DNA of 64,000 bases, from contig OZ244814.1 of the NCBI GenBank assembly GCA_965220175.1, positions 300,992 to 364,991 on the forward strand. The letters run 5' to 3'. The notes under the pieces were generated by a model. That model was not told the origin of the DNA. It did not search any database and saw only the letters and a program-made list of their open reading frames with translations. The translations under genes and the position numbers were made by a program. Below, in pieces: positions 7,053 through 39,067 of this stretch. Position 1 is the stretch's first letter, and each line of letters begins with the position of its first letter. This stretch comes from Chloroflexota bacterium. GTDB lineage: Bacteria > Chloroflexota > UBA11872 > VXOZ01.

Positions 7053-7245
7053 GACGAAGATTCGTCGCCACTCAACTCAAGGGACACTGCGATTGGGGTG
7101 TTGGGTGAGGAGTGGCGGGGATGCGTCTTCCATGACGCAGCAGAGGGGGTAGACTGTGTTCTTTGGTAGTTACCGGTTCAACAATTCTACGATTGCTAAG
7201 CAAACGCTATAATTGGAATATAGGATGTGAACCCTGGAGGCCGCG

Positions 7246-7527
7246 ATGGACGCAAAGCAAGCAGTGCAAGAAGCAAAAAACTACATATTGGATCTCTTTG
7301 AAGGCGAAGACATCGAATATGTCGGCCTCGAGGAAGTAGAGTTCGACCACGAATCTGAAGAGTGGAAGGTTACCCTAGGCTTCTCGCGCCCTTGGGATCG
7401 TCCCAAGTCACTTTCGGTTGCGCTGCGCGACGAGCCGCTTAGGCGCTCCTACAAATTAGTTCGTATAGACGACACTACGGGTAAAGTCACATCTGTTAGG
7501 GACCGCGCCCTGGTGACCGCAAGATAG
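7246..7527 (+). CDS. hypothetical acidic small protein (93 aa), candidate partner of downstream PIN nuclease
   Basis: GGAGG RBS. Preceded by a low-GC leader with a TATAAT hexamer at about 7212..7217. Stop is 5 nt before the PIN gene start. No known antitoxin fold recognised. Confidence 0.5.
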   Translation: MDAKQAVQEAKNYILDLFEGEDIEYVGLEEVEFDHESEEWKVTLGFSRPWDRPKSLSVALRDEPLRRSYKLVRIDDTTGKVTSVRDRALVTAR

Positions 7528-7532
7528 GTTCG

Positions 7533-7997
7533 ATGCCGACACCAGGTGTCTTCATCGACACGAACCTCCTATTGCTCCTCGTCGTGGGCAGTGCCGACAA
7601 GGCCATAGTTGCGAAACACAAGCGGCTAAAGGGTTACACGGCAGAGGATTACGATACTCTTCTCGACCTACTCGATCTCTTTCCCCAAGTCCTAGTCACG
7701 CCCCACACGCTCGCGGAGACCTCCAATCTCCTTGCGCAACACAACGATCCCGAGCGAACCCGGCTGTTTGGGCAACTCCGTTTCCTCATCCATGAATGTA
7801 AGGAAGTGGCAATTGCAGGTACCGTCGCTGCAAACAACAGTGCGTTCCCGCAGCTTGGACTGACAGACTCGGCTCTATTGGAGGTGGTAGCGCCTGAATC
7901 TCCGCTGCTCACTGTCGACTGGGGGCTATTCCAGCAGGCATTGGCAAGAGGATCGGACACGGCGGTCAATTTCACGGATTTTCGGGGACTCGATTGA
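7533..7997 (+). CDS. PIN-domain ribonuclease (VapC-like)
   Basis: N-terminal VFIDTNLLLLLVVG plus downstream conserved acidic residues (LAETSN, LTDSAL, TVDWG) match the four-acidic-residue PIN active site. Confidence 0.7.
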   Translation: MPTPGVFIDTNLLLLLVVGSADKAIVAKHKRLKGYTAEDYDTLLDLLDLFPQVLVTPHTLAETSNLLAQHNDPERTRLFGQLRFLIHECKEVAIAGTVAANNSAFPQLGLTDSALLEVVAPESPLLTVDWGLFQQALARGSDTAVNFTDFRGLD

Positions 7998-8121
7998 CCG
8001 CAGGGAATTTCAAGAGGAAGCTGTTTCGCGGTGCCGCCAATCTCTTGGTTCAAGACGTTGGCGGCGTGGTCAATGCCCCAGTTCGGCAAATTCGAAGAGG
8101 CCTAGGACAGAATCAGCCCAC

Positions 8122-8790
8122 TCAAAACAAGCTGAGTTGATCGTCAGCAGGCTCATCGGCGGCAGCAGCGGATTCCGCGGGTGCCTCCTGCTTCTGCTCA
8201 AAGTACCCATCGGCCTGTAGTTCCTTCAGGCGTTTGGCTATGGCGGGGAGCCGTTGCACGTCTTCGAAGAGCATCTGCTTGATGGCGGGAGTGCGCAATC
8301 CGGCGGCGGGATGGTAGAAGGGCACGTAGGCGCGGCCGTCGGCGAACTTGGGTTCGCCGTGCACGGCGGAAATTTTGGCGCCGGGGAAGAAGCGCGCCAG
8401 TGAATAGCGGCCGAGCGTGACGACGATGCGCGGGTCGATGGCGGCAAGCTGGCGTTCGAGAAACGCGTTGCAGGCGGCGATTTCGTCCGGCTGGGGATCG
8501 CGGTTGCCGGGCGGGCGGCACTTGACGACGTTGGTGATAAACACCTGCTCGCGCCGCAAACCCACCGCCTCCAGCATCTCCTCCAGCAGCTTGCCCGCCT
8601 GGCCGACAAAGGGCCGCCCCTGCTGGTCTTCGTGAAACCCCGGCCCCTCGCCGATGAACATGATGCCGCTCTTGATGGCGCCCTCACCCGGGACGGCCTT
8701 GGTGCGCTGCTCACACAAACGGCACGCCGTGCACCGTCGCACTTCCGCGCCAATTGCGTCCAACACTTGCTCAGGGGATTCTGCCGCCAC
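8122..8790 (-). CDS. uracil-DNA glycosylase, family 4 (4Fe-4S type)
   Basis: GEGPG motif, CTAC...C cysteines, VVKCRPPGNRDP and HPAA motifs characteristic of family 4 UDG. Confidence 0.85.
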   Translation of the reverse strand: MAAESPEQVLDAIGAEVRRCTACRLCEQRTKAVPGEGAIKSGIMFIGEGPGFHEDQQGRPFVGQAGKLLEEMLEAVGLRREQVFITNVVKCRPPGNRDPQPDEIAACNAFLERQLAAIDPRIVVTLGRYSLARFFPGAKISAVHGEPKFADGRAYVPFYHPAAGLRTPAIKQMLFEDVQRLPAIAKRLKELQADGYFEQKQEAPAESAAAADEPADDQLSLF

Positions 8791-9074: not shown

Positions 9075-9383
9075 ATGGACACAACGTATCGTGGTACTCT
9101 AGCTAAAGGATTACCGAGGAGGCACCCAACCGTGACACAAGAGCGCCGAGAGGACCAACTCGCCCGCTTTCAGCGGGACGCCGACTACTTTGAGTCGCAC
9201 TACGAGCAACTCCTGCGAGAGTACCCCGAGCAGTGGGTTGCAGTCTTCAATCAGACCGTCGTGGGAACCGCCTCGGATTTCGATGCACTGCTTGAAACTC
9301 TGGATCAAGCTGGAATACCTATCGAGAGAGCCTTGATCGAGCGCGTTACCGCCGAGGAAGATATCCTCATTCTGCATACATGA
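9075..9383 (+). CDS. DUF5678-like small protein, translationally coupled to downstream aspartic protease
   Basis: C-terminal EQWVAVFNQTVVGTASDFDALLETL resembles DUF5678-type small proteins (assignment from memory, uncertain). The more likely start is in-frame GTG at 9132, preceded by a GAGGAGG RBS at 9116..9122. The stop overlaps the next gene (ATGA at 9380). Confidence 0.5.
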   Translation: MDTTYRGTLAKGLPRRHPTVTQERREDQLARFQRDADYFESHYEQLLREYPEQWVAVFNQTVVGTASDFDALLETLDQAGIPIERALIERVTAEEDILILHT

Positions 9384-9844
9384 TACGCGGCTACTTCCTC
9401 TCCCGTGGCGGCATACGTCGCCCGTTCGTGTCGGCCCGCTTCCAGTTCCCCTCTTTGGACAACCAGATTCTAGAAACACGACTGCTGGTCGACTCTGGTG
9501 CTGACAGCACTGTTCTTGCCCCTCGGGACAGTAAACGGTTGATGCGGCAAGTTGGGCTTGAATTTAGCACTTTGACCGCGACAAAGCCGGGGGCAGGCGT
9601 GGGCGGAAAAGTCAAGATGCGCACGCTAGAGGCTATCATGACCATCCCGCCCTACTCGATACCGCTAACTCTGACCCTATTGGAGCCAGAACCAGGAGAC
9701 ATATCTCCGCTCCCTTCCTTGCTGGGGCGCGACATTCTTTCCCACTTTGCCCTTTTCATGCAAGAACGAACCGGGCAGCTTCTCCTACTCGAACCGGAGG
9801 AAACCCGCGCGGCCGGTGTATTCGAGCGCATTCCCTCAACGTAG
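9380..9844 (+). CDS. retropepsin-like (clan AA) aspartic peptidase
   Basis: LLVDSGADSTVL is the hydrophobic-hydrophobic-D-S/T-G-A active-site motif of retroviral-type aspartyl proteases. Size 154 aa, consistent with a dimerising single-domain protease. Confidence 0.6.
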   Translation: MIRGYFLSRGGIRRPFVSARFQFPSLDNQILETRLLVDSGADSTVLAPRDSKRLMRQVGLEFSTLTATKPGAGVGGKVKMRTLEAIMTIPPYSIPLTLTLLEPEPGDISPLPSLLGRDILSHFALFMQERTGQLLLLEPEETRAAGVFERIPST

Positions 9845-24165: not shown

Positions 24166-25314
24166 ATGGCTACCAAAGTAATTCCCGGCCTTGAAGGTGT
24201 TGCTGCGGCAGAGACGCGGCTGAGCTATGTTGACGGTCTCGCCGGTGAGCTCTTTATCGGCGGGCATCCGCTCATGGAGCTTGCTCCCCATGCGACGTTT
24301 GAAGAGGCCGCGTTTCTCTTGTGGCACGACCGGCTCCCCAACGAAGCAGAGCTTGCGGCCCTCAAGTCCCGCTTCCGGGGTGGCCAAGAACTCCCGCGCA
24401 CCACCAAGCACGTGCTTGAAGCTGCAGCCGCGCGGAAAGCGCCCGTGATCGACGCGCTCCGCATGGCGTGTGCGACACTCTCCCTTGGAGATGCTAACCC
24501 GGATGATATCACTCCTGAAGGGCAGTTGCGCCGCGCAGAAAGGATTTGTGCGGCGTTTCCCGTTATTGTGGCAAACTACGTGCGCGTCCGAGAAGGGAAG
24601 GACGTGGTTGCGCCGTGTGATGACTTCGGCCAAGCCGCCAACTACCTTTACATGCTGAACGGCGAAGAGCCGCATGCCGACTTCGTGCGCGCCATGGATA
24701 CCTATCTCGTTACCGCCATGGACCACGGCATGAATGCCTCCACTTTCACGGGAAGAGTGATCGTTTCCACTGAGTCCGACCTATATTCGGCCATTACAGG
24801 CGCCATCGGCGCGTTGAAAGGGCCTGCCCACGGCGGCGCGCCCGGACCCGCGCTGGACATGGTGTTCGAAATTGGTACGGCGGATCGCGCCGATGCGAAC
24901 ATCCGCGAGCGACTTGAAAGGGGCGAGCGCTTGATGGGCTTCGGCCACCGCGTCTACAAGGTCCGCGATCCCCGCGCCGACGTGCTCTCGCAGGCGGCGG
25001 AACGGCTCTACGAACAGGCCGGCGACCGCACCCTCTACGATCTCGCGCGTGCAGTCGAGGAGACTGCGCTGCGCCTCCTGGAGGAATACAAGCCGGGCCG
25101 CAATCTGCAGACGAACCTCGAATACTACACGGCGCTGGTGCTGCACGGTGTCGGACTTTCCGCCGAACTCTTCACGCCCACGTTCGCCGTGGGCCGCGTC
25201 GGCGGCTGGTCGGCCCACTGCCTGGAGCAACTCTCGCACAACCGGCTCATCCGTCCTTCCTCGGTGTACACCGGACCGAAAGACCGCCGCTGGCTGCCGC
25301 TGGAGCAGCGCTAG
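24166..25314 (+). CDS. citrate synthase
   Basis: GFGHRVYK motif and overall citrate-synthase architecture. 382 aa (short form). Confidence 0.85.
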   Translation: MATKVIPGLEGVAAAETRLSYVDGLAGELFIGGHPLMELAPHATFEEAAFLLWHDRLPNEAELAALKSRFRGGQELPRTTKHVLEAAAARKAPVIDALRMACATLSLGDANPDDITPEGQLRRAERICAAFPVIVANYVRVREGKDVVAPCDDFGQAANYLYMLNGEEPHADFVRAMDTYLVTAMDHGMNASTFTGRVIVSTESDLYSAITGAIGALKGPAHGGAPGPALDMVFEIGTADRADANIRERLERGERLMGFGHRVYKVRDPRADVLSQAAERLYEQAGDRTLYDLARAVEETALRLLEEYKPGRNLQTNLEYYTALVLHGVGLSAELFTPTFAVGRVGGWSAHCLEQLSHNRLIRPSSVYTGPKDRRWLPLEQR

Positions 25315-25748
25315 GATTTTTGCATTCAGACCCGGCTGTGCAGGCAGCCGCCTCGTTTGCTTCAAATAGCCGTTGTCAGTTTGGCAGGTATTCTCTGTAG
25401 CGGGATCAGTCGATTCACGTTTGATTTCCTCATCGGATTAGGCTTCATGTCATTCCGAGCGTAGCGAGGAATCTAAAATGCCCCCAATTCTAGATTCTTC
25501 GTCGCTGCGCTCCTCAGAATGACATTTGCGAGTTGGCTCAGATCTAGGACGATCACTTGTCTTACCTTTGGCTACGCCAAGCCCAAGTCTGCAAATTCCG
25601 ATCTGAAGTTCCCTTGACACCTGCCGTATTTCGCTGCAACCTATAAGGCAATATCGGCGTGAGGTGCGCAAGCAGCGCGTGGGGGACTTTGAGAATCCAG
25701 TCAAGCAGTGCGTATCTCAATTGGAGAGCATGTAGAGGAGCAATTCTC

Positions 25749-27119
25749 ATGTTGAAAAAGCGATTTTCGCGGCGCGCATTTCTTGGTTCTACCACGGCGG
25801 TAGGAGGCGCAGCGATCCTGGCGGCTTGCGGCGCCCAGACCGGCGCCATGCCGGCAGAAGAGATGCCTGCCAAGCAGGAAGAGGAGGCCAAAGCTGAGAT
25901 GGCTCCCAAAGAGGAGCCGGTACAGCTCATCTATCTCTCACGAGACTCCGCCTCAACCACTGAGAAGGTGCGCGCCTACTTCGACACCTACGAGGCCGAG
26001 ACACCCAACGTCAAGATCGAGCTGCAGAACCTCGCCAGTGTAGGCGAGGCGGAGACGAAGCTCAAGGTCGCGGCGGCGGCGGGCGTGCCCATCGACTTCC
26101 TCCGCTGCAGTTGGGGTTCCTATCTCGACTTGGCGGAAGCAGAAGTGCTCTCGCCATTGGATGATTTCTTTAAGCGCGACGGCTTGGTTCCCACCGAGAT
26201 TTTCACACCCGCTACGCTGACACAGTGGCTGGACAAAGGCATCTTGTGGGGCATGCCCGGATCCGGCAACTGCGACGCCCTGCTCATGAACAAGCAATTG
26301 CTTGACAATGCCGGTCTGGATGCGCCCTCCGCCGACCCGGCGGACGCATCCTGGACAATGGACAAGTTCCTGGAATACGGCAAAGCCATGACCCAGGGCG
26401 ATCAACAGTTCGGTCACACCGGCGGGGTCTCGGCGTTCAACGTTTCCGGCATCGCTACCGGCACCTACTTCGGCGAATTCTGCTGGAACGTGGAAGAAGA
26501 GCGCGGCAACATGGACCACCCGGTGTTCATCGAAGCGCTGCAGTATTGGCGTGACCTGCGCGACAAGCACCAGGTTGTGCCCAATGCGGACCAGTCCGCC
26601 GCCCTCAGAGGCGAACAGCACATTTGGCAAACCGGCAAAGTCGGTTTCCACATTACTAACGGCTACAAGCCGGCGGTGGAATTCGAGGTGATCGGCGCGG
26701 CCCTGCCGTATACGGGCGAAGCGCCGAACAAGTCCGGCCGCGCCTGGTACCCGGCCATCCTGATGGGCGTCGGTGAAAAGGTGGACCACGCCTGGAACGT
26801 GCTGAAGTGGATGATGTCCGGCGAAAATAGCGTTGGCTACACGTTGGCGGTAAACCACACCATCAGCCCCGTCGCCGCAGTTTCCACGCTGCCCGCGGAG
26901 CGGCTGAAGGCAGAGACGGGCTACGATTCGGTTGCCCACGCCAATCAGTCAGCGTATAGCGGTCCGGCCGGCTGGGGCTTGCTGCGCTACACCACGTGGG
27001 GTGAATGGCGCACCGAAATCAAGCCGGTTTACGATGAGTTCAACGCGGGCAACATGACCGCCGAGGAATACGGCCGCGCCGCCACCGATCTGCTGAACGC
27101 GATCATTATTCAAGAGTAG
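25749..27119 (+). CDS. ABC transporter substrate-binding lipoprotein (carbohydrate-type SBP family 1)
   Basis: GAGGAG RBS. MLKKRFSRRAFLGSTTAVGGAAILAACG Tat-type signal with lipobox. Body typical of extracellular solute-binding proteins. Confidence 0.75.
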   Translation: MLKKRFSRRAFLGSTTAVGGAAILAACGAQTGAMPAEEMPAKQEEEAKAEMAPKEEPVQLIYLSRDSASTTEKVRAYFDTYEAETPNVKIELQNLASVGEAETKLKVAAAAGVPIDFLRCSWGSYLDLAEAEVLSPLDDFFKRDGLVPTEIFTPATLTQWLDKGILWGMPGSGNCDALLMNKQLLDNAGLDAPSADPADASWTMDKFLEYGKAMTQGDQQFGHTGGVSAFNVSGIATGTYFGEFCWNVEEERGNMDHPVFIEALQYWRDLRDKHQVVPNADQSAALRGEQHIWQTGKVGFHITNGYKPAVEFEVIGAALPYTGEAPNKSGRAWYPAILMGVGEKVDHAWNVLKWMMSGENSVGYTLAVNHTISPVAAVSTLPAERLKAETGYDSVAHANQSAYSGPAGWGLLRYTTWGEWRTEIKPVYDEFNAGNMTAEEYGRAATDLLNAIIIQE

Positions 27120-27386
27120 CGGCGAGTACTGCGATTTCCCGGCAAAAGAGGGTGAGCAGTCGCTAGGAGAGAGTGCTAACTGAGAAACTGTGTGCACTCG
27201 TAACGTTCGCCGTGAGCTTGTCGAAGGGCCGTTCATGCTTCGACACGCTCAGCACGAACGGTTTTCCTATGCTCTGCAGAATTCCTCTGAGGTAGAAATG
27301 TAAAGAGGCGGGAGGCCAAGCCTCCCGCCTCTTGCTGATGTCACCGCGCAACTGCTGAGCCAGCAGCACGCGCCGATTGTCTGACG

Positions 27387-28745
27387 TCAGGCAGTAGATT
27401 CCGTTTCTTCTCCCTCCTCCGATTGAGCCTTTTCGCTCCGGTATTCCTCCAAGCATTCAATGACAATCCTGTTGATCTCAGGGAACTGGCCTTGGGCGAA
27501 ATCATCGAGTCTGCCTGAAATGGTCCGGCGAATCCTCTCCTCGTCCCACCAGTGCTCGTAGTCCGAACTCTCCAGAATGCCCCGCTTAAAGGGCAGTTCG
27601 ATGTAGTCTTCGGAATACCCTGGCAGCGGGCCTTTGAACATCCCGGGGTCTGCCTTGACACGATCGAGTAGCCTTTTCTTCAGATCCTCAGGGCCTCTCT
27701 TGGCAAAGACAAGGAACAGGCCCGCCGCGTTGTTCGTGACACGAACCTGAAAAAGCAGTAGGCTGTGAGGCCAACAGTCAATCTTGAGCTCCTCGTATCT
27801 GTCCCAATCGGTGGAGACAAACCGGGCGTACGGACGATTGCTCGTGCCTTTCTTCCATTCCTTGTGCTTGCTGACCTCCTCGCCCACCATGTGGTATCCC
27901 TCGCTCACGTAGTTGGGCTCGTACCGGTCCCGGTGCTCGATTATGAGATCGATGGCCTTCTTATGTTTCCGGTAGATTTTACGGGCCAGCTCGTGTACAT
28001 CGTCGCTGACTTCGGGCACGATATTTCTCCTTAATGTGATCGCGTATTGACGCAGCGCGGCGGCAACGTCCTGGTGAACAGCGGCGCCCTTTGCCTCGAT
28101 TGTCCGGTCAAGTATTCGCCGAATGCGCGAGTAGTCAAGCGTAGTCCAATGGTCCCATTCCGTTGCGTTTTCGGGCATGTCCCCTCTCGGCGTGAGAAAC
28201 ACCAGGCGCATCGTGTAGTCTGGGTAATGCTCCTTGAGCGCCTGCCGGTAGAAGGCCAGTTGATTGCCGCTTTCCGGCGACCACACTTTGTTTTCCACCG
28301 CGCACAGGAATCCGGCTTGCTCGTTGTGGATGCAGATGTCCAACCGGCCGCTTTCCCCGTCAAGTTCGAGGTTTTGCTCCCGGCACACCGTGGTGCTAAT
28401 CCGGGCGCCGGCGCGGGCGGCGCCGATTTCGACAAGGAACTCCCTGAGGAAATAATCGTCAAGGCCGTGATTGTCTCCAGGGCGCAGCAGCCAGGCGAGG
28501 AAATCGGAATGAAATTTTTCGATATCAACCAATCCCAAGGTCCTGAAGACGTCCACCTCCTCTTGCCACTTTGGAATCATAGCCGCTAACCGCGCCAGAT
28601 CCTCTCCGTCCTCCGCCAAGCGCCGCAAGGACCGGTGGGCCGCTTCATTCTCAAGAATGAAGAGTTGCTCAAGGTCTCCTAGGTCGTTCTGAAGCTCTTC
28701 TAAAGCGCCAGTCAGCTCGGAGCTTAGACTGCCGTCAGTCGCCAT
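27387..28745 (-). CDS. PD-(D/E)XK nuclease superfamily protein (about 450 aa) in a locally low-GC patch
   Basis: LDICIHNEQAGFLCAVENKVW contains a D...E-x-K restriction-endonuclease-like motif in the N-terminal half. Long C-terminal region of unknown function. Start taken at MATDGS (the ORF could start 29 codons earlier). Confidence 0.55.
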   Translation of the reverse strand: MATDGSLSSELTGALEELQNDLGDLEQLFILENEAAHRSLRRLAEDGEDLARLAAMIPKWQEEVDVFRTLGLVDIEKFHSDFLAWLLRPGDNHGLDDYFLREFLVEIGAARAGARISTTVCREQNLELDGESGRLDICIHNEQAGFLCAVENKVWSPESGNQLAFYRQALKEHYPDYTMRLVFLTPRGDMPENATEWDHWTTLDYSRIRRILDRTIEAKGAAVHQDVAAALRQYAITLRRNIVPEVSDDVHELARKIYRKHKKAIDLIIEHRDRYEPNYVSEGYHMVGEEVSKHKEWKKGTSNRPYARFVSTDWDRYEELKIDCWPHSLLLFQVRVTNNAAGLFLVFAKRGPEDLKKRLLDRVKADPGMFKGPLPGYSEDYIELPFKRGILESSDYEHWWDEERIRRTISGRLDDFAQGQFPEINRIVIECLEEYRSEKAQSEEGEETESTA

Positions 28746-28995
28746 AGCATTCTCATTTGTAAAGAGATAAATACGTGCGAGGAAGGATGTGACGAGTCTG
28801 CCAAATCCCCGTTTCAGGCAGGAGTATATCACTCACGCACAGTGAGCGGAGGAATTCCCGTGATCTGAACTTACCAGTTTTAGGCAATAGTGCGCCGGTC
28901 GTTGGTCACGACCCGGAGACCCGCTGGCATTTGACCTGCGAGCGGTGCTCAACCTGAAACGGCTGGCTCCCATTGCGTGGTTTGCAAAGAGGCTC

Positions 28996-29835
28996 TTAGG
29001 TATCGATCTGTTTGAGCCAAGCAACGAACGCTTCGGAACACCAGCGCGGCGGATCGGCCTCGGCAAGCTCAAGCCAGCGGTCTACCATGGGCCGGGCGCG
29101 GGTACCGCGGATAGTAGCCGCTCCGATCGTGCCGTAATGCAGGCCTCCCTCCTCTGCCAAAACGGCTTCGAATGCCTCACGCGGCTTTAGACCGATGCTC
29201 GGCCACACGCCCGGCTGCTGCCAACCGCTTATCTGTGCCGCCAGGCATTCGCGCTGCTCGGGCGCGGCTCTCTGCAGTGCGCGCTCTACCAGCCTGCTTT
29301 CTACGAAGTGCACCATCGTATTGAAGTGGAAGTTGATACCCAGGAAGCAGTAGGCCACGTTCCAATCGTAGAACTTCTGCCAGGGACTCTCTCGCGCGAA
29401 GGCGCGCGGACCCCAGGGTCCAAGGCGCTGGCCCGCTGCGCCATGATTGGCAGTGAGTTCCCGAGCGCGTGGGCCAATAGCCGACACCGAGTGCGTGCCA
29501 TGGTCGCTGCGTATGGCTTCCGACCGGTGGCGCAGGACTTCGGTGATACGCCCGACGCACGAGACCGAGGTCTCGATGTTCCAGCGGTCGAACGTCAGGT
29601 GCCGCTCGCCGTCCGGCATGCGGCAGAGGGTGGGCACGACGACTGTGCCCTCGGGGCCAACCGCATCCAGGAACCCGTCTATCACCGTATCCGCGCCGCC
29701 GACCACCCAGCCCATGCTGCTCAGGGAACTGTGGAACATCACCGTGTCACCGGGCCGCACACCGACTTGCTGCAGGGCGTTGGTGATCTCCTGGCGTTCA
29801 ACGTTGCTTGCTGTACGGCGGGCGTCAGTCACCAC
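28996..29835 (-). CDS. aminoglycoside N(3)-acetyltransferase family protein (AAC(3))
   Basis: VMFHSSLSSMGWVVGGADTVIDGFLDAVGPEGTVVVPT and the downstream RSDHGTHSVSAIG blocks match the Antibiotic_NAT (AAC(3)) family. Confidence 0.8.
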   Translation of the reverse strand: MVTDARRTASNVERQEITNALQQVGVRPGDTVMFHSSLSSMGWVVGGADTVIDGFLDAVGPEGTVVVPTLCRMPDGERHLTFDRWNIETSVSCVGRITEVLRHRSEAIRSDHGTHSVSAIGPRARELTANHGAAGQRLGPWGPRAFARESPWQKFYDWNVAYCFLGINFHFNTMVHFVESRLVERALQRAAPEQRECLAAQISGWQQPGVWPSIGLKPREAFEAVLAEEGGLHYGTIGAATIRGTRARPMVDRWLELAEADPPRWCSEAFVAWLKQIDT

Positions 29836-29987
29836 GTGTGGACTCCTCTTCTATTACGCGTCCCTTACCCGCCTATTCTACAATGCACGGGATTGAGTGA
29901 AGCGGAATCGCCGCTTACGGCACTCCCAGCGCGGCTTGAAGCAATCGACTTCACTGTTTGCGACTAAGGCGCGGAATTAGACGCGTA

Positions 29988-30452
29988 GCGCGGGGGCTTG
30001 TCCTCCGCTCCGCCATTTAGAATAAGGAACGACACCTATCCGTCACTCCGGCGGAAGCCGGAGTCCAGGGCACGCGGGCCCGGAATAAAGATGGATTCCC
30101 GCGTGCGCGGGAATGACGGTCTGACGGCGCAGATTGCAGTACCGCCTTCTATTCACCGTATCGCGGGGGCTTGTCCTCCGCTCCGCCATTTAGAATAAAG
30201 AACGGCACCCATCCGTCACTCCGGCGAAAGCCGGAGTCCAGGGCGCCCGCGGCAGGAATGAAGATGGATTCCCGTTTTCGCGGGAATGACGGTCTGACGG
30301 CGCAGGTTGCAGTGCCGCCCAATCTTCACCGTAGTGCGGGGGCTGATCCACCGTATCGCCATCAAACCAAACCACGGAACCTTTCCGTCACTCCGGCGGA
30401 AGCCGGAGTCCAGGGCACTCGCAGCAGGAATGAAGATGGATTCCAGCATGCA
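29988..30452. repeat. Tandem array (about 2.7 copies of a ~175-bp unit) of family A composite hairpin repeat
   Basis: Units start at about 29988, 30163 and 30335. Each contains CGCGGGGGCTTGTCC, CCGTCACTCCGGCG(G/A)AAGCCGGAGTCCAGGG, GATGGATTCCCG(C/T)(G/T)T(G/T)CGCGGGAATGACGG and GACGGCGCAG(A/G)TTGCAGT. ORFs called inside it (29998..30198, 30171..30476, 30190..30375) are artefacts. Confidence 0.85.
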
Positions 30453-30615
30453 GACCTCTCTATTGTGGTGGGTTGAGCTACTCGCTGTCTTAATCATATG
30501 ACTGGCTGTCTTTTGAAAAGTCAACGCAACCTAGTATAGTGATACCCACAAGCGACAGGGCGCCACCACAAAAGGGGCCTGAGTTTCAGCTTTGGAGTGT
30601 GGGTGGGGCGTCAAT

Positions 30616-31884
30616 ATGATTGGGGCGTTGACGGACGCCTTGCAAGAGTGCGACTTCTTGTCTGAAAAGGCCGGTGAGACTATGTACGGCGTAATCTGGA
30701 CGTATCCCTGGGACGTGCTCGACGCGGGCGTTGACACTGCGATGGCGCAGATCGCCAATGAAGGCGGCATGCAGGCGGTTTCCCTCAGCCACAGCTACCA
30801 CAACGTCAAGCACTTGCGGCCCCACAACCCCGGTCGCAAGCTCTTTGTCGCTAACTCGTCGGCCATTTACTTTCAACCCGACCTCAAGCGTTACGGCGCC
30901 ATCAAGCCCATCGTGGCCCCGCTGGTGCAGGAAGACGACGGCATGCGCCGCATCCGCGACGCTGTAGAAAGACACGGCCTCGCGTATCATGCCTGGACGG
31001 TCACCCTGCACAACAGCGCGCTTGGCACGATTTATCCCCACATCAACACGCTCAATGCCCTGGGCGACCGCATTCCCCATTACCTCTGCCCCAGTAATCC
31101 CGATGTGCGCATCTACTTTACGGCGCTGCTGAGCGATATGGCCGACAATCTCGCCCCCGACCAGGTCGAACTGGAGTTCCTGCATTTCGGCACCTTCGAA
31201 CACGACGTCCACCACGGCATACAGAGTGTGGAATTGGACCCTTTCACCGAATACCTGCTGGGTCTCTGCTTCTGCGAGCATTGCTTGGGCCGCGCTCAAG
31301 CGGCAGGGGTGGATGGTGAGGCCGTGCGCCGGTGGGCCCAGGGCCACATCCTCGACTACCTGGAAGGCGATCAGTTGCCCGCGCTCGGGGGCTTGGGCGA
31401 CAACATCGCCGGCCATGCGCTCACGTTTGCCGCGCTTGACGGCTACCTGCGCATGCGCATCGATAGTGTCATGTCGCTCTGGGCCGAGTGCAAACAGGCC
31501 TTGGGCGGCAAGTCGGACTTTGTGCCCATCGTCAACATGGGCGTCGGCATGCCTGACCAGGCATCGGTCAAACAGGCGCTGGACGGTGTCGACATCGGCC
31601 GCGCTCTCGATGAAGGCATCCCAAACGAACTGCTCGACTGCGCCGCGTATTCGCTGGACGGTCTCATTCTCAGACGCGCCGTCCACGACTTGCGACGGTT
31701 GGTAGATGATCGGGTGCCCATCCGCGAGGGATTGCGGCTCATTCCGCCGCAGGTGATTACGTCGGCGGACGTGGCTGGACAGATCGAAAAGGTGCGCGCG
31801 CTCGGCATCGACCGCGTGAACGTCTACAACTACGGCCTGATGCGCCTAGCCAATCTGCGGGCAGCCAAACAAGCGCTGGCGTAG
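30616..31884 (+). CDS. hypothetical protein (possibly a TIM-barrel glycoside-hydrolase-like fold; unassigned)
   Basis: Long ORF with protein-like composition (W/Y/F/H rich). The antisense ORF 30586..31686 has antisense-type R/A/V/G bias and is rejected. No firm family recognised. Confidence 0.5.
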   Translation: MIGALTDALQECDFLSEKAGETMYGVIWTYPWDVLDAGVDTAMAQIANEGGMQAVSLSHSYHNVKHLRPHNPGRKLFVANSSAIYFQPDLKRYGAIKPIVAPLVQEDDGMRRIRDAVERHGLAYHAWTVTLHNSALGTIYPHINTLNALGDRIPHYLCPSNPDVRIYFTALLSDMADNLAPDQVELEFLHFGTFEHDVHHGIQSVELDPFTEYLLGLCFCEHCLGRAQAAGVDGEAVRRWAQGHILDYLEGDQLPALGGLGDNIAGHALTFAALDGYLRMRIDSVMSLWAECKQALGGKSDFVPIVNMGVGMPDQASVKQALDGVDIGRALDEGIPNELLDCAAYSLDGLILRRAVHDLRRLVDDRVPIREGLRLIPPQVITSADVAGQIEKVRALGIDRVNVYNYGLMRLANLRAAKQALA

Positions 31885-32079
31885 GTCACATGTATGCCGC
31901 CCTCCTACCCAACAAACAATGAAAGATGGCGGGGCGGCGTAGGGGCACGATATATCGTGCCCCTACAAGATAATGGATGGCGGTAGTAAAACCAAAGACG
32001 ATACATACCTGAACCGATTGAAGATGGAATAGGCAGTTTATGAGGCTCAGGTTTTGTTCCCTCTCCTGGGGGAGTGTAT

Positions 32080-33335
32080 AGACCGGGTTGATGGGTAACA
32101 CTTGTTCGGGCTGATAGGTTACACCTAAAGGCATGGAGAATCTTGCAGCAGGAGGATGGCCATGCCGTGGAAGGTGGAAACACTTATGTCTGCTCGGGAA
32201 GAATTTATCGCTCTGGCACTGGCTGACGGGGCGAACATGAGTGAGCTGTGTCGGCGCATGGGGATCAGTCGGAAGACCGGGTACAAGACGCTGCGGCGGT
32301 ACGCGCAGAGTGGTGCAGACGGTCTGCAGGACCGGTCGCACCGCACGCACACGTGTCCGCACCGCACGAGCCGGGAGATGGAGGAACGCATCATCGCGTT
32401 GCGGCTGGCGCATCCCAAGAAGGGCGCGCACGTGCTGCGCAGGATGCTGCAAGACCAGGGGGTGACCGACGTGCCGGCCAAGAGCACGATCCAGGCCATG
32501 CTCAAGCGCAATGGCCTCATCGACCCTGCAGAGAGCGCCAAGCATACTCCCCAGGTGCGCTTTGAGTACCCTGCGCCCAACGACCTGTGGCAGTTGGACT
32601 TCAAAGGGCATTTCAGCATGCAGCACGACCGCTGCCATCCGCTCACGCTCCTGGACGATCATTCTCGCTTCAACCTCACGCTCCAAGCCTGTGCCAACCA
32701 GCGTGGCGAGACGGTGCAAGACCGCCTCACCACGGCCTTTCGCCGCTACGGCCTGCCCCAGGCCATGCTCATGGATAACGGCTCACCCTGGGGCAACGAC
32801 GCCGGTCAGCCCTACACGCCCTTCACCGTCTGGCTCATGCACCTGGGCATCACCGTGCGCCACAGCCGACCCTACCATCCCCAAACCCTCGGCAAGCTCG
32901 AACGCTTCCACCGCTCCCTCAAAAGCGAATTGCTGCAGGGCCGTACCTTCACCGACCTGGAGCACTGCCAACGCGCCTTCGACACGTGGCGTCATTTCTA
33001 CAACTTGGAACGCCCGCACTATGCCCTCGGCCTGGACACTCCCATCAGCCGGTACACGCCCAGTGCACGCTCCTTCCCCGAGACCCTGCCTGCCCTTGAA
33101 TACGACCCCGACGATCAGGTGCGCAGCGTCGACGTCTCCGGCCGCATCTCTTTCCAGGGCAGCAGGCTCCGTGTCGGCAAAGCTTTCACCCACAAACAGG
33201 TCGCACTGCGACCCACCCCAACAGACGGCGTCTGGAACGTGTACTTCTCAAGACAACGCCTAAAGTCCATAGACCTCAGAGAACAAAATGTGTAACCTAT
33301 CAACCCGAACATCTGTTACCTATCAGCCCAGTCTG
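32080..33335 (+). mobile_element. IS481-family insertion sequence (~1.25 kb) with ~40-bp imperfect terminal inverted repeats, inserted into a family D palindromic repeat
   Basis: Left end CCGGGTTGATGGGTAACACTTGTTCGGGCTGATAGGTTACAC pairs with the reverse complement of the right end CTGGGCTGATAGGTAACAGATGTTCGGGTTGATAGGTTACAC (36 of 42 positions). The flanks (CCCTCTCCTGGGGGAG on the left, CAGGGAGAGGGTTAGGGTGAGGGG on the right) are the two halves of a family D repeat. Confidence 0.75.
32156..33295 (+). CDS. IS481-family transposase (DDE integrase core)
   Basis: N-terminal HTH region followed by an rve-type integrase core (LWQLDFKG, MLMDNGSPW, RPYHPQTLGKLERFHRSL). Confidence 0.85.
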   Translation: MAMPWKVETLMSAREEFIALALADGANMSELCRRMGISRKTGYKTLRRYAQSGADGLQDRSHRTHTCPHRTSREMEERIIALRLAHPKKGAHVLRRMLQDQGVTDVPAKSTIQAMLKRNGLIDPAESAKHTPQVRFEYPAPNDLWQLDFKGHFSMQHDRCHPLTLLDDHSRFNLTLQACANQRGETVQDRLTTAFRRYGLPQAMLMDNGSPWGNDAGQPYTPFTVWLMHLGITVRHSRPYHPQTLGKLERFHRSLKSELLQGRTFTDLEHCQRAFDTWRHFYNLERPHYALGLDTPISRYTPSARSFPETLPALEYDPDDQVRSVDVSGRISFQGSRLRVGKAFTHKQVALRPTPTDGVWNVYFSRQRLKSIDLREQNV

Positions 33336-33396
33336 TACAGGGAGAGGGTTAGGGTGAGGGGTCAAGAGGGACTATACGTACACTGAGAAGGTACTT

Positions 33397-34413
33397 ATGG
33401 TAGCAATCACGCAATGGAAATTCGGTAAACGCTGGGTCTATTCCACCACTTATGACGAAGTGGTGACCTCGACCGTAGAGAACGGATTGCCCATCCACGA
33501 GCAATTCGGCGCGCCGGGGCACATAACCGTCGTTGTAGGACAGATGGGCGAACCCCGCGACGTGCAGGGCAGCGGCTACGACGCTACCTATCGACATATC
33601 TCTGTAGAGGAGTGCAAGTTGGCGCAGCGGTACGGCTGGACGGTTTCCAACCATTCCATGACGCACAACAGGCTACCGGGCGACATGTCCGTGCCGGAGA
33701 ACGCCCGTATCGAGGTGGTGGACGCCACGCGCTTGCTGGAAGAGCGGCTGGGCACTCCGGTGACGACGTTCATTGCGCCGGGGAGCGATCACTGCCTGCC
33801 GTATGCCTGGCCGCTGGCAGAGGAAGCCGGGTGTCTGAGCATGTTCGGTGTGCGCGACCGGCTCAACTACCCCGATTCGGACCTCATGCAACTCAGCCGG
33901 CCGGTGGTCTACCACAAGCTCGATGAATACAACCGGCGCTACGATCCCTACCGGCTCGTCTACCGCGCCCGTGAAACCGGCGGCTGGATCGTGGATTACA
34001 CCCACGCGGTGCAGGACGAGCTTGTCATTCCCAACCGTGAATTGACGCCCACTGAACTCGGCAACCGCTTGGAAGCCATAACACGCGTCGGCGGAGACGA
34101 AGTCTGGCTGGCAGTGCCGGAGGAGGTGGTGGACTACCTCATCGTGGCGCGGGAAACGACAGTCGTTGACGAGCGGCGCACGCCGACTGCCATCACGTAC
34201 CGCCTGGCGGCGCCGGCTATACCGGACCGCATCCAATGGCACACGCTGACGTTCACGTGCACGGTGCCGCGCGAATGGTCGGATGTTGGCGTCGTGGTTA
34301 CCCACGCAGGCGAGATTGAACCGGTCACCCTGGAACGGCTCGACGACACGACCATACGTTACAGCCACCTTGTTGCCGACGGTCAGAAAGTGACGATCGA
34401 ACCGAAGAGCTAG
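33397..34413 (+). CDS. polysaccharide deacetylase-like (NodB-fold) protein
   Basis: VSNHSMTHNRL histidine motif and overall deacetylase-like layout. Weaker match than 20081..21028. Confidence 0.6.
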   Translation: MVAITQWKFGKRWVYSTTYDEVVTSTVENGLPIHEQFGAPGHITVVVGQMGEPRDVQGSGYDATYRHISVEECKLAQRYGWTVSNHSMTHNRLPGDMSVPENARIEVVDATRLLEERLGTPVTTFIAPGSDHCLPYAWPLAEEAGCLSMFGVRDRLNYPDSDLMQLSRPVVYHKLDEYNRRYDPYRLVYRARETGGWIVDYTHAVQDELVIPNRELTPTELGNRLEAITRVGGDEVWLAVPEEVVDYLIVARETTVVDERRTPTAITYRLAAPAIPDRIQWHTLTFTCTVPREWSDVGVVVTHAGEIEPVTLERLDDTTIRYSHLVADGQKVTIEPKS

Positions 34414-37195: not shown

Positions 37196-38938
37196 CTAGC
37201 AATCGCTCATGATCGGCTGAGCGCTCTGCGCAACGCGCGCGATGGCGTCCAACTTCTCGCCTATTTCGGGATCGATTTCGTCCTGCGGCACAAATTCGGC
37301 CAACTCGTAGAAGGCTTTCTTGCGCATGAGGTTGGGCAAACTGAGGTGCCGAAAGTAGGCTTCGAACACCGGCCTAAGGAAGTCGTCGCTCGCCTTAATG
37401 TCAGAGTCCCACGGCGAGCCCAAGCCTAGAGTGCGCAACGCTTCTGCGATATTGGCAACGGCTGCGCGCATTGCCTCAAGCCGTCGCGGGACTTCAGCGC
37501 GCGCAAACAAGGGGCCAGGCGCGTCAGACTCCGCCGTACTTTGTGCGTAGGCCTCCAGTGTCGCTTGGGAACAAAGGTAGTTTTCAATCTCGCGCCGCTG
37601 CCAGGTTAGCCGCTCAACCTGACCGGTCTCGGGCGTACCGGAGTCTGGGCGGTCGAAGAGCGCGACGCCTTTTAGATGCGGCAGCGCCTCCCTGAGTCCG
37701 TGAAAGTGATGCGGTACTGCTGAAGCGTTGTTGCCAACGTAGTGCACGTAGGGACGTTCCAGGGCACGACCCGCCTCTGCGTGTCCAAGGCGTCGCGCGA
37801 ATGCCTGTAAGATCGAGAGGTCTGTGGATCCCTCCAAGTAGAGCACCCAGCCCGTCTGCTTCGCCTGATAGTAGTGTTCGAAGCCAATGTCCTTTGGGGA
37901 CTTCAAGAGTTGACTACCCTGGTCGTCGATGCGGTGGGGCTCTCCAATGAACGCGATCACCATATCCTTGCCGGCAGCCTCGTCGAGCAGCACTTCAGAG
38001 TGGCTGGCTGCGATGATCTGGCTACCGCTGGCGGTAGCGGCGTCAGTGATGAGGCGATAGATTTGGCGCTGCCTCAAGATTTCAAGGTGTGCGTCCGGCT
38101 CATCCAGCATGAGCACTGCACCTGGATTGGCATACATATAGGCCAAAATGAGCAGAGTCTGCTGGAGACCCCGTCCGCTGGATGATAGGTCTAGCGTGAC
38201 ATCATGTTCACGATAGCTCATGGCAATCTCACCACGCTCCGTGATGTACCGGGGCGGCTCAATGTGCACACCAAACAAGCTGCGAATCTGAGCAGTTAGC
38301 TCCTGCCAAGCCTCAGAGTGTTCCTCGTAGATACCGTAGCAGAGATTTCGCAATACCTCCGCCGTACGTCCCTCGCCTACACGTACAGTCACCGCCCCAG
38401 GGTCTAGCCGTGTTTCTGTAGCAGCAAGACCGGACATTGGTGGCAAGAACGCAACCTGCACACTGCCAGCCGCTTCTGGTACCGGCATTCTTTCGGCCGT
38501 GCTGGTATTGGTTTCTCGCAATGGGCGGCAATAGAATGATTCCTCGTTGGCGTAGTCAAACTCCAGCCCACAGGTCCACGGTTGATCGTCAGTGACGCCC
38601 TCCACGATGACATCGATCCGCACGTTCTGGGTTTGCTGCTTGCCGTTCTCTATGCGCACGTCTCGCGAATGTAGTCCGTGCCACAAGAGACGTGCACTCG
38701 GCACCGGAATGGCAACAAGGTCTCGTCGATTGACAGTTACACCAGGTCGCTTTTCTGGCGCGCCCTTGCCCCGACGCTTCTCATTCCATCGTTTCAGCCC
38801 AACGTCCCAAAGCGCCAGCGCCTGCATGGCTGAGGTCTTGCCCGAGTTGTTGGGGCCGATGAACGCCACCGGGCTGCCAAGCTCGATCTCCACCTCGTCA
38901 AAGCGCTTGAAGTTGCGGATGGTGAGTTTAGTCAGCAT
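37196..38938 (-). CDS. OLD-family / PARIS-like ABC-ATPase fused to a C-terminal TOPRIM-like (DUF4435-like) nuclease domain
   Basis: Walker A FIGPNNSGKTS at the N-terminus. Walker B VLMLDEPDAHLE about 300 aa downstream (split ABC ATPase as in OLD/AriA/GajA). C-terminal WVLYLEGSTD ... ALFDRPDSG resembles the TOPRIM glutamate and DxD motifs. Start taken at MLTKLTIRNF; the ORF extends to 39016. Confidence 0.6.
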   Translation of the reverse strand: MLTKLTIRNFKRFDEVEIELGSPVAFIGPNNSGKTSAMQALALWDVGLKRWNEKRRGKGAPEKRPGVTVNRRDLVAIPVPSARLLWHGLHSRDVRIENGKQQTQNVRIDVIVEGVTDDQPWTCGLEFDYANEESFYCRPLRETNTSTAERMPVPEAAGSVQVAFLPPMSGLAATETRLDPGAVTVRVGEGRTAEVLRNLCYGIYEEHSEAWQELTAQIRSLFGVHIEPPRYITERGEIAMSYREHDVTLDLSSSGRGLQQTLLILAYMYANPGAVLMLDEPDAHLEILRQRQIYRLITDAATASGSQIIAASHSEVLLDEAAGKDMVIAFIGEPHRIDDQGSQLLKSPKDIGFEHYYQAKQTGWVLYLEGSTDLSILQAFARRLGHAEAGRALERPYVHYVGNNASAVPHHFHGLREALPHLKGVALFDRPDSGTPETGQVERLTWQRREIENYLCSQATLEAYAQSTAESDAPGPLFARAEVPRRLEAMRAAVANIAEALRTLGLGSPWDSDIKASDDFLRPVFEAYFRHLSLPNLMRKKAFYELAEFVPQDEIDPEIGEKLDAIARVAQSAQPIMSDC

Positions 38939-39067
38939 TGGTAACCATCGTGTTCTTTCATTCAGCCTCGCAATTCTGCACTTCGCGGAAGATCGGCTTT
39001 CGCAGCAGTGTACCACTCGGCGCAGGGCGACCGAATGGCGTAGCGACCGCCAAATGCCAAGTCATCG

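What the first reader, a model, noticed from the sequence alone, without database searches (positions are those of the whole stretch)
27387..29835. Lone ~450-aa PD-(D/E)XK nuclease next to an AAC(3) aminoglycoside acetyltransferase in a low-GC patch
The gene at 27387..28745 has a restriction-endonuclease-like D...E-N-K motif (DICIHNEQAGFLCAVENKVW) in its N-terminal half and a ~250-aa C-terminal extension of unknown function.

The segment from about 27400 to 28800 is visibly AT-richer than its surroundings. It is followed on the same strand by an AAC(3)-family acetyltransferase.

Single-gene PD-(D/E)XK proteins of this size are frequent components of phage-defence loci, for example the Shedu-like single-gene systems. 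Together with the resistance-type gene, this looks horizontally acquired.
Basis: partly seen in the sequence, partly recalled or inferred. Interest (0 to 1): 0.55.

Follow-up and report, generated by a model that had tools for sequence, protein, structure and literature searches.

The report
Lone candidate phage-defence nuclease, PDC-S26 family
This is an intact single-gene nuclease of a catalogued but untested candidate phage-defence family, sitting in a swappable slot of a Chloroflexota chromosome, so it is a fairly ordinary accessory gene and not a recent import or a resistance island.

Summary
A 452-aa gene on the minus strand (27387..28745) carries an intact PD-(D/E)XK motif (D136, E151, K153). 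It is the most AT-rich long ORF in the window. An AAC(3)-family gene lies 250 nt upstream on the same strand.

The protein matches Pfam PDDEXK_4 (E 5e-25). It also matches PADLOC's untested candidate PDC-S26 over its full length (E 1e-73). It is not Shedu.

The architecture is fixed across more than 170 homologs: N-terminal helices, nuclease core, an unusually conserved linker, and a C-terminal domain with no close solved structure.

The source is a Chloroflexota genome. Eight related genomes keep an intact ortholog in the same place. One has an in-frame stop, one has a clean empty site, and one carries an unrelated PDDEXK_4 cassette in exactly this slot, in the opposite orientation.

The low GC comes from amino-acid composition. 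GC3 and codon usage are native, and orthologs share the low GC.

The gene is therefore an exchangeable accessory gene, but not a recent acquisition. It is not linked to a real resistance gene, because the acetyltransferase is far below NCBI's AAC(3) cut-off.

Distant homologs lie beside type IV restriction, Pbe and Shedu genes. The most likely role is a self-contained defence nuclease (confidence about 0.55). Interest is low to moderate.

The parts
27387..28745 (-). CDS of the 452-aa PDDEXK_4 / PDC-S26-family nuclease (ATG 28745, TGA 27387-27389)
   Evidence: ORF. Pfam PF14281 E 4.7e-25. PADLOC PDC-S26 PDLC04977 E 9.6e-74 over aa 37-432. More than 170 full-length homologs.
28554..28745 (-). 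N-terminal helical region (aa 1-64): two long helices with conserved leucines, a possible oligomerisation element
   Evidence: AF2 model has helices 8-45 and 47-61, with low pLDDT of 44-64. Conserved L15, L18, L22, L40, L43, L50, L53. Oligomerisation is an inference.
28044..28553 (-). PD-(D/E)XK nuclease core (aa 65-234)
28281..28340 (-). E76 lies upstream and Q162xxxY166 just downstream.
   Evidence: In 48 homologs D136, N152, K153, E76, Q162 and Y166 are invariant, and E151 is present in at least 90%.
27891..28073 (-). Helical linker (aa 225-285), the most conserved segment of the protein and rich in R/K/H
   Evidence: Mean pairwise identity 0.81-0.84, against 0.60 for the nuclease core and 0.49 for the C-domain. 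Alignment.
27444..27890 (-). C-terminal alpha/beta domain (aa 286-434) with a conserved DYExWWDE patch; no Pfam family and no close solved structure
27303..27333 (-). 14-bp G+C-rich hairpin 54 nt after the stop codon, between the convergent nuclease and solute-binding-protein genes; terminator-like
   Evidence: Folding energy -32.6 kcal/mol, z -4.4 against shuffles. Conserved in relatives, including L106, which has a different cassette.
27355..28795 (.). Variable slot: the segment that is replaced (L106) or missing (L107) in related genomes while both flanks stay homologous
   Evidence: blastn homology breakpoints. Gene tables.
28746..28995 (-). 250-nt intergenic region upstream of the nuclease, presumed to hold its own promoter
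   Evidence: Sequence. No consensus sigma-70 site was found there on the minus strand, so the promoter is inferred only.
28996..29835 (-). Neighbouring 279-aa Antibiotic_NAT (AAC(3)-like) acetyltransferase; not part of the nuclease system
   Evidence: Pfam 4.5e-39. NCBIfam AAC_3 97 bits against a cut-off of 270. Nearest solved structures are BA2930, FrbF and YokD. Lost in L008 and split in L009. Not a neighbour of more distant homologs.

Best explanation
The gene encodes a catalytically intact, self-contained PD-(D/E)XK nuclease of the PDDEXK_4 / PADLOC PDC-S26 family.

I think it most likely works as a single-protein anti-phage (or anti-mobile-DNA) nuclease. The N-terminal helices would assemble an oligomer. 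The core (E76, D136, E151, K153, Q162/Y166) would cut DNA with a metal ion. The variable C-terminal domain, coupled through the highly conserved basic linker, would hold the nuclease in check until it senses an infection cue.

Shown here: family membership, conserved catalytic residues, a fixed four-part architecture, location in an exchangeable chromosomal slot, and defence-gene neighbours of distant homologs.

Inferred: nuclease activity, DNA as substrate, oligomerisation, the sensing role of the C-domain, and the defence phenotype itself.

In this genome the gene is an old resident of a Chloroflexota lineage. It is not a recent import, and it is unrelated to the adjacent acetyltransferase.
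For: Family and architecture:
- Pfam PDDEXK_4 at 89 bits.
- Full-length PDC-S26 hit at E 9.6e-74, with no other PADLOC system matched.
- Catalytic residues are invariant or nearly so in 48 homologs.
- The fold matches restriction-type and defence nucleases.
- The C-domain was found only together with PDDEXK_4 in the hits checked.
- The C-domain and N-helices are the most variable parts and the linker the most conserved.

The slot is exchangeable:
- L106 holds a non-orthologous PDDEXK_4 gene (25% identity) plus a 183-aa ORF in the opposite orientation, within the same breakpoints.
- L107 is a clean empty site.
- L109 has an in-frame stop.
- The nuclease is the fastest-evolving gene of the block: 68-91% pairwise identity, against 87-97% for citrate synthase.

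Defence context:
- In relative L001/L005 a type II restriction-modification pair sits one gene away.
- Distant full-length homologs (26-31% identity) lie next to a type IV restriction enzyme (E 1e-267), PbeA/PbeC (E 1e-247 and 1e-276) and a Mokosh-like helicase.
- On a Rhizobium plasmid the homolog lies among Shedu, AbiGi and Eco57I genes.
- The family is patchy across phyla and occurs on 28 plasmid records.
- PDC families were defined by being embedded in BREX, DISARM or type I R-M loci (10.1101/2024.01.29.577857).
Against: - PDC-S26 has never been tested. The source paper calls the 145 PDCs untested, and only 4 of 8 candidate systems tested elsewhere protected E. coli (PMC12881386).
- In this window the immediate neighbours are housekeeping genes: a solute-binding protein, citrate synthase and a penicillin-binding protein.
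- In 23 other Chloroflexota loci the neighbours are mostly metabolic, with few and weak defence hits.
- I made no background control for the neighbour counts.
- The gene is retained intact in eight of eleven relatives examined. This also fits a useful cellular function.
- The L109 stop could be a long-read sequencing error.
- No structure or sequence evidence says what the C-domain binds.
Confidence: 0.55

Rival explanations
1. The gene is a lineage-specific cellular nuclease, for example in DNA repair or recombination, that has been domesticated in Chloroflexota. It would be kept because it serves the cell, not because it fights phages.
For: - Intact orthologs sit in the same position in eight related genomes, with divergence roughly tracking the flanks.
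- Codon usage is native.
- Chloroflexota homologs mostly lie among metabolic genes.
- There is a RecB-like QxxxY motif after the ExK motif.
Against: - The slot is empty in L107 and holds a different cassette in L106.
- The pattern scan confirmed only 175 stretches in representative genomes of 185,579 species (a lower bound), scattered over several phyla and plasmids.
- It evolves faster than all the housekeeping neighbours.
- It gave no NCBIfam match, and PDDEXK_4 was its only Pfam match.
- Distant homologs sit in defence islands.
Confidence: 0.2
2. This is the first reader's reading: a recently acquired low-GC island that brought in a defence nuclease together with an aminoglycoside-resistance gene.
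For: - The gene's GC is in the lowest 1.3% of same-size windows.
- An IS481-family transposase and repeat elements lie 1-4 kb away.
- The two genes are adjacent on one strand.
Against: - Both genes are syntenic in most relatives at 71-83% identity.
- The low GC is at codon positions 1 and 2 only and is shared by all orthologs.
- The acetyltransferase has normal GC (0.643) and scores 97 bits against the AAC_3 cut-off of 270.
- The variable segment covers the nuclease alone, not the acetyltransferase.
- The IS is a separate, window-specific insertion between two other genes.
- Antibiotic_NAT is not among the 25 most frequent Pfam families in the neighbours of more distant homologs.
Confidence: 0.05
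3. It is a solitary restriction endonuclease: either modification-dependent (type IV-like), or the nuclease half of a decayed restriction-modification pair. The C-terminal domain would read the DNA target rather than an infection signal.
For: - The best fold matches include type II and type IIS restriction enzymes (R.BspD6I, FokI, NgoMIV, SdaI) and modification-dependent ones (MspJI, AspBHI, McrC).
- Some relatives have a SAM methyltransferase next to the gene.
- Bacillota homologs sit beside type IV enzymes.
Against: - The neighbouring methyltransferase is a class I Methyltransf_11 enzyme, not a recognised DNA methylase family. It is absent from the window and present in L107, which lacks the nuclease.
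- The C-domain shows no similarity to SRA, winged-helix or other DNA-reading domains.
- No methylase travels with the family.
Confidence: 0.15

Closest known systems
PADLOC PDC-S26 (phage defence candidate, single gene)
   Same: There is a full-length match to two PDC-S26 profiles (E 9.6e-74 and 2.6e-67, aa 37-432 of profiles of about 400 positions) and eight weaker ones. Both are single-gene PDDEXK_4 proteins.
   Different: PDC families were defined from copies embedded in BREX, DISARM or type I R-M loci. This copy is embedded in housekeeping genes. The family has no experimental test on record.
Pfam PDDEXK_4 (PF14281)
   Same: It scores 89 bits over 180 of 183 profile positions and has the D...ExK motif.
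   Different: The Pfam family covers only aa 65-234. It is listed as 'function unknown' (PMC3424549). The N-helices, linker and C-domain are outside it.
Shedu (SduA, DUF4263/PF14082)
   Same: The logic is the same: one protein with a PD-(D/E)XK nuclease plus an extra, variable domain, found in defence islands. From my own knowledge, SduA is an oligomer whose non-nuclease domain controls activity.
AF1548, NucS, Upx, R.BspD6I and FokI nuclease domains (solved PD-(D/E)XK folds)
   Different: Sequence identity is 6-17%. None has the linker or the C-domain. The similarity is at superfamily level only.
BA2930 / YokD / FrbF branch of the Antibiotic_NAT (AAC(3)) family, for the neighbouring gene
   Same: These are the best solved relatives of the 279-aa neighbour, at E 1e-16 to 1e-20. 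It also hits Pfam Antibiotic_NAT.
   Different: It is far below NCBIfam's AAC(3) resistance cut-offs: 97 bits against 270, and 73 against 480-560 for the subtypes. From my own knowledge, FrbF is a biosynthetic acetyltransferase, so a resistance role cannot be assumed.

Membership tests
Pfam PDDEXK_4 (PF14281) | Score above the curated gathering threshold (22.3 bits) | tested here: met
   89 bits, E 4.7e-25, aa 65-234 on profile positions 2-181 of 183.
PD-(D/E)XK superfamily | Catalytic D...(D/E)xK residues on the core sheet, plus a conserved Glu in the first helix | tested here: met
   E76, D136 and K153 are invariant and E151 is present in at least 90% of 48 homologs. In the model, D136 lies between strands 131-135 and 137-141, E151 on strand 146-152 and K153 just after it. 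The fold matches PD-(D/E)XK nucleases.
PADLOC PDC-S26 | Full-length match to the family's profile HMMs, as a single-gene system | tested here: met
   PDLC04977 E 9.6e-74 (aa 37-432 on positions 7-396 of 400) and PDLC04972 E 2.6e-67. No conserved partner gene appears among neighbours.
PADLOC PDC-S26 | Anti-phage activity | not testable with these tools
   It is also untested in the literature searched. The PDCs are described as 145 untested candidates. PDC-S26 was not among the PDCs tested in PMC12881386.
PADLOC PDC-S26 | Association with, or embedding in, known defence systems | tested here: inconclusive
   Not met in the window, where the neighbours are housekeeping genes. Met for distant homologs and for one close relative with an adjacent R-M pair. 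Weak in 23 other Chloroflexota loci. No background control was run.
Shedu (SduA) | DUF4263 (PF14082) nuclease domain or SduA profile match | tested here: not met
RecB / Cas4-type nucleases | A hit to a family profile of these nucleases (from my own knowledge PDDEXK_1 / Cas_Cas4), a QxxxY motif, and for Cas4 a four-cysteine Fe-S cluster | tested here: not met
Housekeeping resolvase or repair nuclease conserved in all relatives | Universal presence at a fixed locus in related genomes | tested here: not met
   Present and intact in eight relatives, but absent in L107, replaced in L106 and interrupted in L109.
AAC(3) aminoglycoside-resistance acetyltransferases (neighbouring gene) | Score above NCBIfam's AAC_3 equivalog cut-off (270 bits) or a subtype cut-off | tested here: not met
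   97.4 bits for AAC_3 and 48-74 bits for the subtypes, whose cut-offs are 420-675. Only the broad Pfam Antibiotic_NAT family is met.

The most novel reading that the evidence does not exclude
Probability: 0.4. Interest if true: 0.5.

Novelty: new member of a known kind. Interest (0 to 1): 0.3.

Why it matters
The gene adds a well-documented Chloroflexota example to a candidate defence family that nobody has tested.

It supplies three things that were not on record in the sources I could search:
- a fixed four-part architecture, with a linker more conserved than the active site;
- a C-terminal domain without a solved relative;
- a natural experiment in which the same chromosomal slot is filled by the full-length gene, filled by an unrelated PDDEXK_4 two-gene cassette, or left empty in sister genomes.

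This makes the family a reasonable target for a phage-challenge test. It does not overturn anything. The 'resistance gene plus defence gene island' idea does not hold.

Tried and rejected
- A sequence-profile hit of the C-terminal region to a cGAS-like receptor (8gjw, E 9e-5) was not borne out by fold comparison. I dropped it.
- Proteins of about 183-199 aa that looked like stand-alone C-domains are probably artefacts. The one looked up (P0134) is a contig-end fragment. The two plasmid copies annotated as split genes (H1, H3) are frameshifted.
- The 183-aa ORF of the L106 cassette is not a diverged C-domain (hhalign probability 0.1%).
- The metagenome scan with the solute-binding protein found no close relative.
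- The exact-sequence look-up of the window's own protein found no record.
- The cluster look-up gave no names.
- The AlphaFold-database fold library was unavailable.
- PHROGs gave no phage family, and Rfam gave nothing in 25000-33500.
- The promoter scan found no consensus site upstream of the gene.
- dN/dS was not attempted, because synonymous sites are saturated at about 75% protein identity.
- The neighbour counts lack a background control, so I use them qualitatively only.
Full report
**1. What is in the sequence**

The gene lies on the minus strand. The longest ORF is 27387..28832 (GTG start). The ATG at 28745 gives 452 aa, and the N-termini of homologs align to this start.

The protein hits Pfam PDDEXK_4 (PF14281) at 89 bits over aa 65-234. 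It has no NCBIfam family. The last 218 residues or so have no Pfam family even at E<=1.

A 14-bp G+C hairpin lies 54 nt after the stop, between this gene and the convergent solute-binding-protein gene (27303-27333, z -4.4).

Upstream on the same strand, after a 250-nt gap, is a 279-aa Antibiotic_NAT protein (28996..29835).

**2. Composition**

The gene's GC is 0.562. The window's GC is 0.608. Only 1.3% of same-size windows are as low, and it has the lowest GC of 48 long ORFs.

The deficit is at codon positions 1 and 2 (GC2 0.386). GC3 is 0.676 against 0.72 +/- 0.06, and synonymous codon choice ranks 13th of 44. Orthologs in seven relatives have the same GC, 0.548-0.570.

The AT-richness is therefore a property of the protein, which is rich in E, D, K, I, Y and F. 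It is not a mark of recent arrival.

**3. Family**

PADLOC's library gives a full-length match to PDC-S26. The best profile scores E 9.6e-74 over aa 37-432, and nine further PDC-S26 profiles hit. Nothing else hits, and in particular no Shedu model.

PDCs are 145 'phage defence candidates' proposed because members are embedded in BREX, DISARM or type I R-M loci. The authors call them untested (10.1101/2024.01.29.577857). In the library I searched, PDC-S26 is otherwise mentioned only as a frequent system in enterobacterial pipolins (PMC11551731). When eight other candidates were tested elsewhere, four protected E. coli (PMC12881386).

Pfam's source paper lists PDDEXK_4 as function unknown (PMC3424549).

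**4. Architecture**

A search of 5.8 billion proteins gave 179 hits. The best 120 were listed; nearly all are 385-485 aa long and all carry PF14281.

In an alignment of 48 homologs, these residues are invariant: E76, H79, S80, D136, N152, K153, Q162, Y166 and R167. E151 is present in at least 90%. This is a complete PD-(D/E)XK site with a RecB-like QxxxY helix.

The AlphaFold model (pLDDT 81) shows four parts:
- two long N-terminal helices (8-61, low confidence);
- the nuclease core;
- a helical linker;
- a confident alpha/beta C-terminal domain.

The C-terminal domain modelled alone has pLDDT 90.

| Region | Mean pairwise identity, all 48 homologs |
|---|---|
| Linker (aa 225-285) | 0.81 |
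| Nuclease core | 0.60 |
| C-terminal domain | 0.49 |
| N-terminal helices | 0.46 |

A profile of the C-domain searched against 1.84 billion representative proteins found 210 hits. All nine hits of 317 aa or longer that I scanned carry PDDEXK_4 in front of it. The domain therefore seems to exist only with this nuclease.

**5. Organism and relatives**

The closest genomes are Chloroflexota MAGs, several of them complete circular chromosomes of about 3.5 Mb.

In seven of them (L002, L005-L009, L022) and in L108, an intact ortholog at 71-76% identity sits in the same block. The block order is penicillin-binding protein, citrate synthase, solute-binding protein, nuclease, acetyltransferase.

Pairwise identity matrices show the nuclease as the fastest-evolving gene of the block: 68-91%, against 87-97% for citrate synthase. 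The groupings are roughly concordant with the flanks.

This is vertical descent within a lineage, so 'recently acquired' is wrong.

**6. The slot is not fixed**

I searched with the neighbouring solute-binding protein and looked up further relatives. Three depart from the pattern.

- **L106** is a 3.56-Mb circular genome. Between the same flanks it has a different PDDEXK_4 gene: 251 aa, 25% identity over aa 65-229, in the opposite orientation. An overlapping 183-aa ORF follows it, with no family and no similarity to the C-domain. Homology to the window breaks at about 27355 and resumes at about 28796. This is exactly the gene, and the terminator hairpin is kept.
- **L107** is a clean empty site. 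Its DNA passes from the end of the solute-binding-protein gene straight to the upstream region of a methyltransferase that lies beyond the nuclease in L001/L005. About 2 kb is skipped.
- **L109** has an in-frame stop in its ortholog. This could be a long-read sequencing error.

The gene is thus an exchangeable accessory cassette in a conserved backbone. This pattern is typical of defence genes, but it does not prove defence.

**7. Wider context**

The family is patchy. It is abundant in Chloroflexota, Dehalococcoidia and SAR202. At 26-31% identity it also occurs in Bacillota (Salinicoccus, Halobacillus, Staphylococcus simulans, Clostridium), in Gastranaerophilales, and in a few Proteobacteria and Bacteroidota. 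It occurs on 28 plasmid records but in only 2 phage records, and it has no PHROG family.

Among the three ORFs on either side of the gene in 17 non-Chloroflexota loci, I found strong hits to type IV and type I restriction enzymes, PbeA/PbeC, DRT and others. Examples:
- a 968-aa type IV enzyme (E 7.6e-267) in Salinicoccus;
- PbeC and PbeA (E 1e-276 and 1e-247) in Pseudalkalibacillus.

On Rhizobium phaseoli pRphaN671a a frameshifted copy lies among Shedu, AbiGi, TcmP/DUF5131 and Eco57I genes.

In 23 other Chloroflexota loci the neighbours are mostly metabolic, and defence hits are few and weak. I ran no background control, so these counts are qualitative.

No partner gene recurs with the family. 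Antibiotic_NAT is not among the 25 most frequent neighbour families.

**8. The acetyltransferase**

It belongs to Pfam Antibiotic_NAT. It scores 97 bits against NCBIfam's AAC_3 cut-off of 270, and far below every subtype cut-off.

Its nearest solved relatives are BA2930, FrbF and YokD. Its GC is normal (0.643). It is lost in L008 and split in L009.

Calling it a resistance gene is not justified, and nothing links it to the nuclease.

**9. Mechanism**

The best-supported reading is a self-contained defence nuclease:
- the N-terminal helices form an oligomer;
- the core performs metal-dependent DNA cleavage;
- the variable C-domain, coupled through the conserved basic linker, gates that activity in response to an infection cue.

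Only family membership, the catalytic residues, the architecture, the exchangeable slot and the defence neighbours of distant homologs are shown. The remaining steps are inference. I put this reading at about 0.55.

Rivals:
- a domesticated cellular nuclease (0.2);
- a solitary or modification-dependent restriction enzyme (0.15);

**10. Verdict**

This is a new member of a catalogued but untested candidate family. Interest is low to moderate (0.3).

Noticed in passing
window 29984-30451; core copies at 2230, 13716(-), 30040, 30213, 30385 and 41587: About 2.7 tandem copies of a 173-nt unit lie in the gap between the acetyltransferase and the next gene. The unit's 32-nt palindromic core (CCGTCACTCCGGCGRAAGCCGGAGTCCAGGGC) occurs 6 times in the window, against 0 expected. 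This looks like a dispersed REP- or MITE-like repeat. There is no Rfam match.
   Followed up: partly
window 32156-33295 (+): An IS481-family transposase (rve plus LZ_Tnp_IS481 domains) is inserted between two genes that are adjacent in all relatives examined. An 83%-identical copy sits elsewhere in relative L009.
   Followed up: partly
window 37196-39016 (-): A 606-aa AAA_15/AAA_21 ABC-type ATPase has an OLD-family nuclease (6p74, E 1e-10) as its best solved relative. It occupies a second variable slot. It is present in L009 and L007, an MNT/HepT toxin-antitoxin pair takes its place in L002, and there is nothing there in L005. It is probably another defence gene, 8.4 kb from the nuclease.
   Followed up: partly
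L001/L005 13408-14975 and 8229-9533; also L007, L109 and L107: One relative has a type II restriction-modification pair (N6_N4_Mtase plus RE_EcoO109I) inserted between the solute-binding-protein and citrate synthase genes. Several relatives have a 434-aa class I SAM methyltransferase between the acetyltransferase and the nuclease. The window has neither.
   Followed up: partly
L106 7797-9100: The alternative cassette in the same slot is a 251-aa PDDEXK_4 protein with a translationally overlapping (ATGA) 183-aa ORF that has no detectable family. It may be a two-gene relative of the system.
   Followed up: partly
window 25746-27119 compared with L006: The solute-binding protein is 98.7% identical between the window and L006. 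Neighbouring genes are 75-95% identical. This hints at a recent recombination patch next to the nuclease slot.
   Followed up: no
window about 6600-8500 (ORF 7533-7997) and 9380-9844: This is the only region with lower GC than the nuclease (0.550). Its 154-aa ORF has no Pfam family. A nearby 154-aa ORF has weak retropepsin-like aspartyl protease hits, all below the Pfam cut-offs.
   Followed up: no
L010 and L019 (two contigs of one Dehalococcoidia MAG); L030 and L033 (one chromosome): Some genomes carry two copies of the family. The L010 and L019 copies have the same identity to the query and the same flanking ORF coordinates, so they may be a duplicated segment or an assembly artefact.
   Followed up: no
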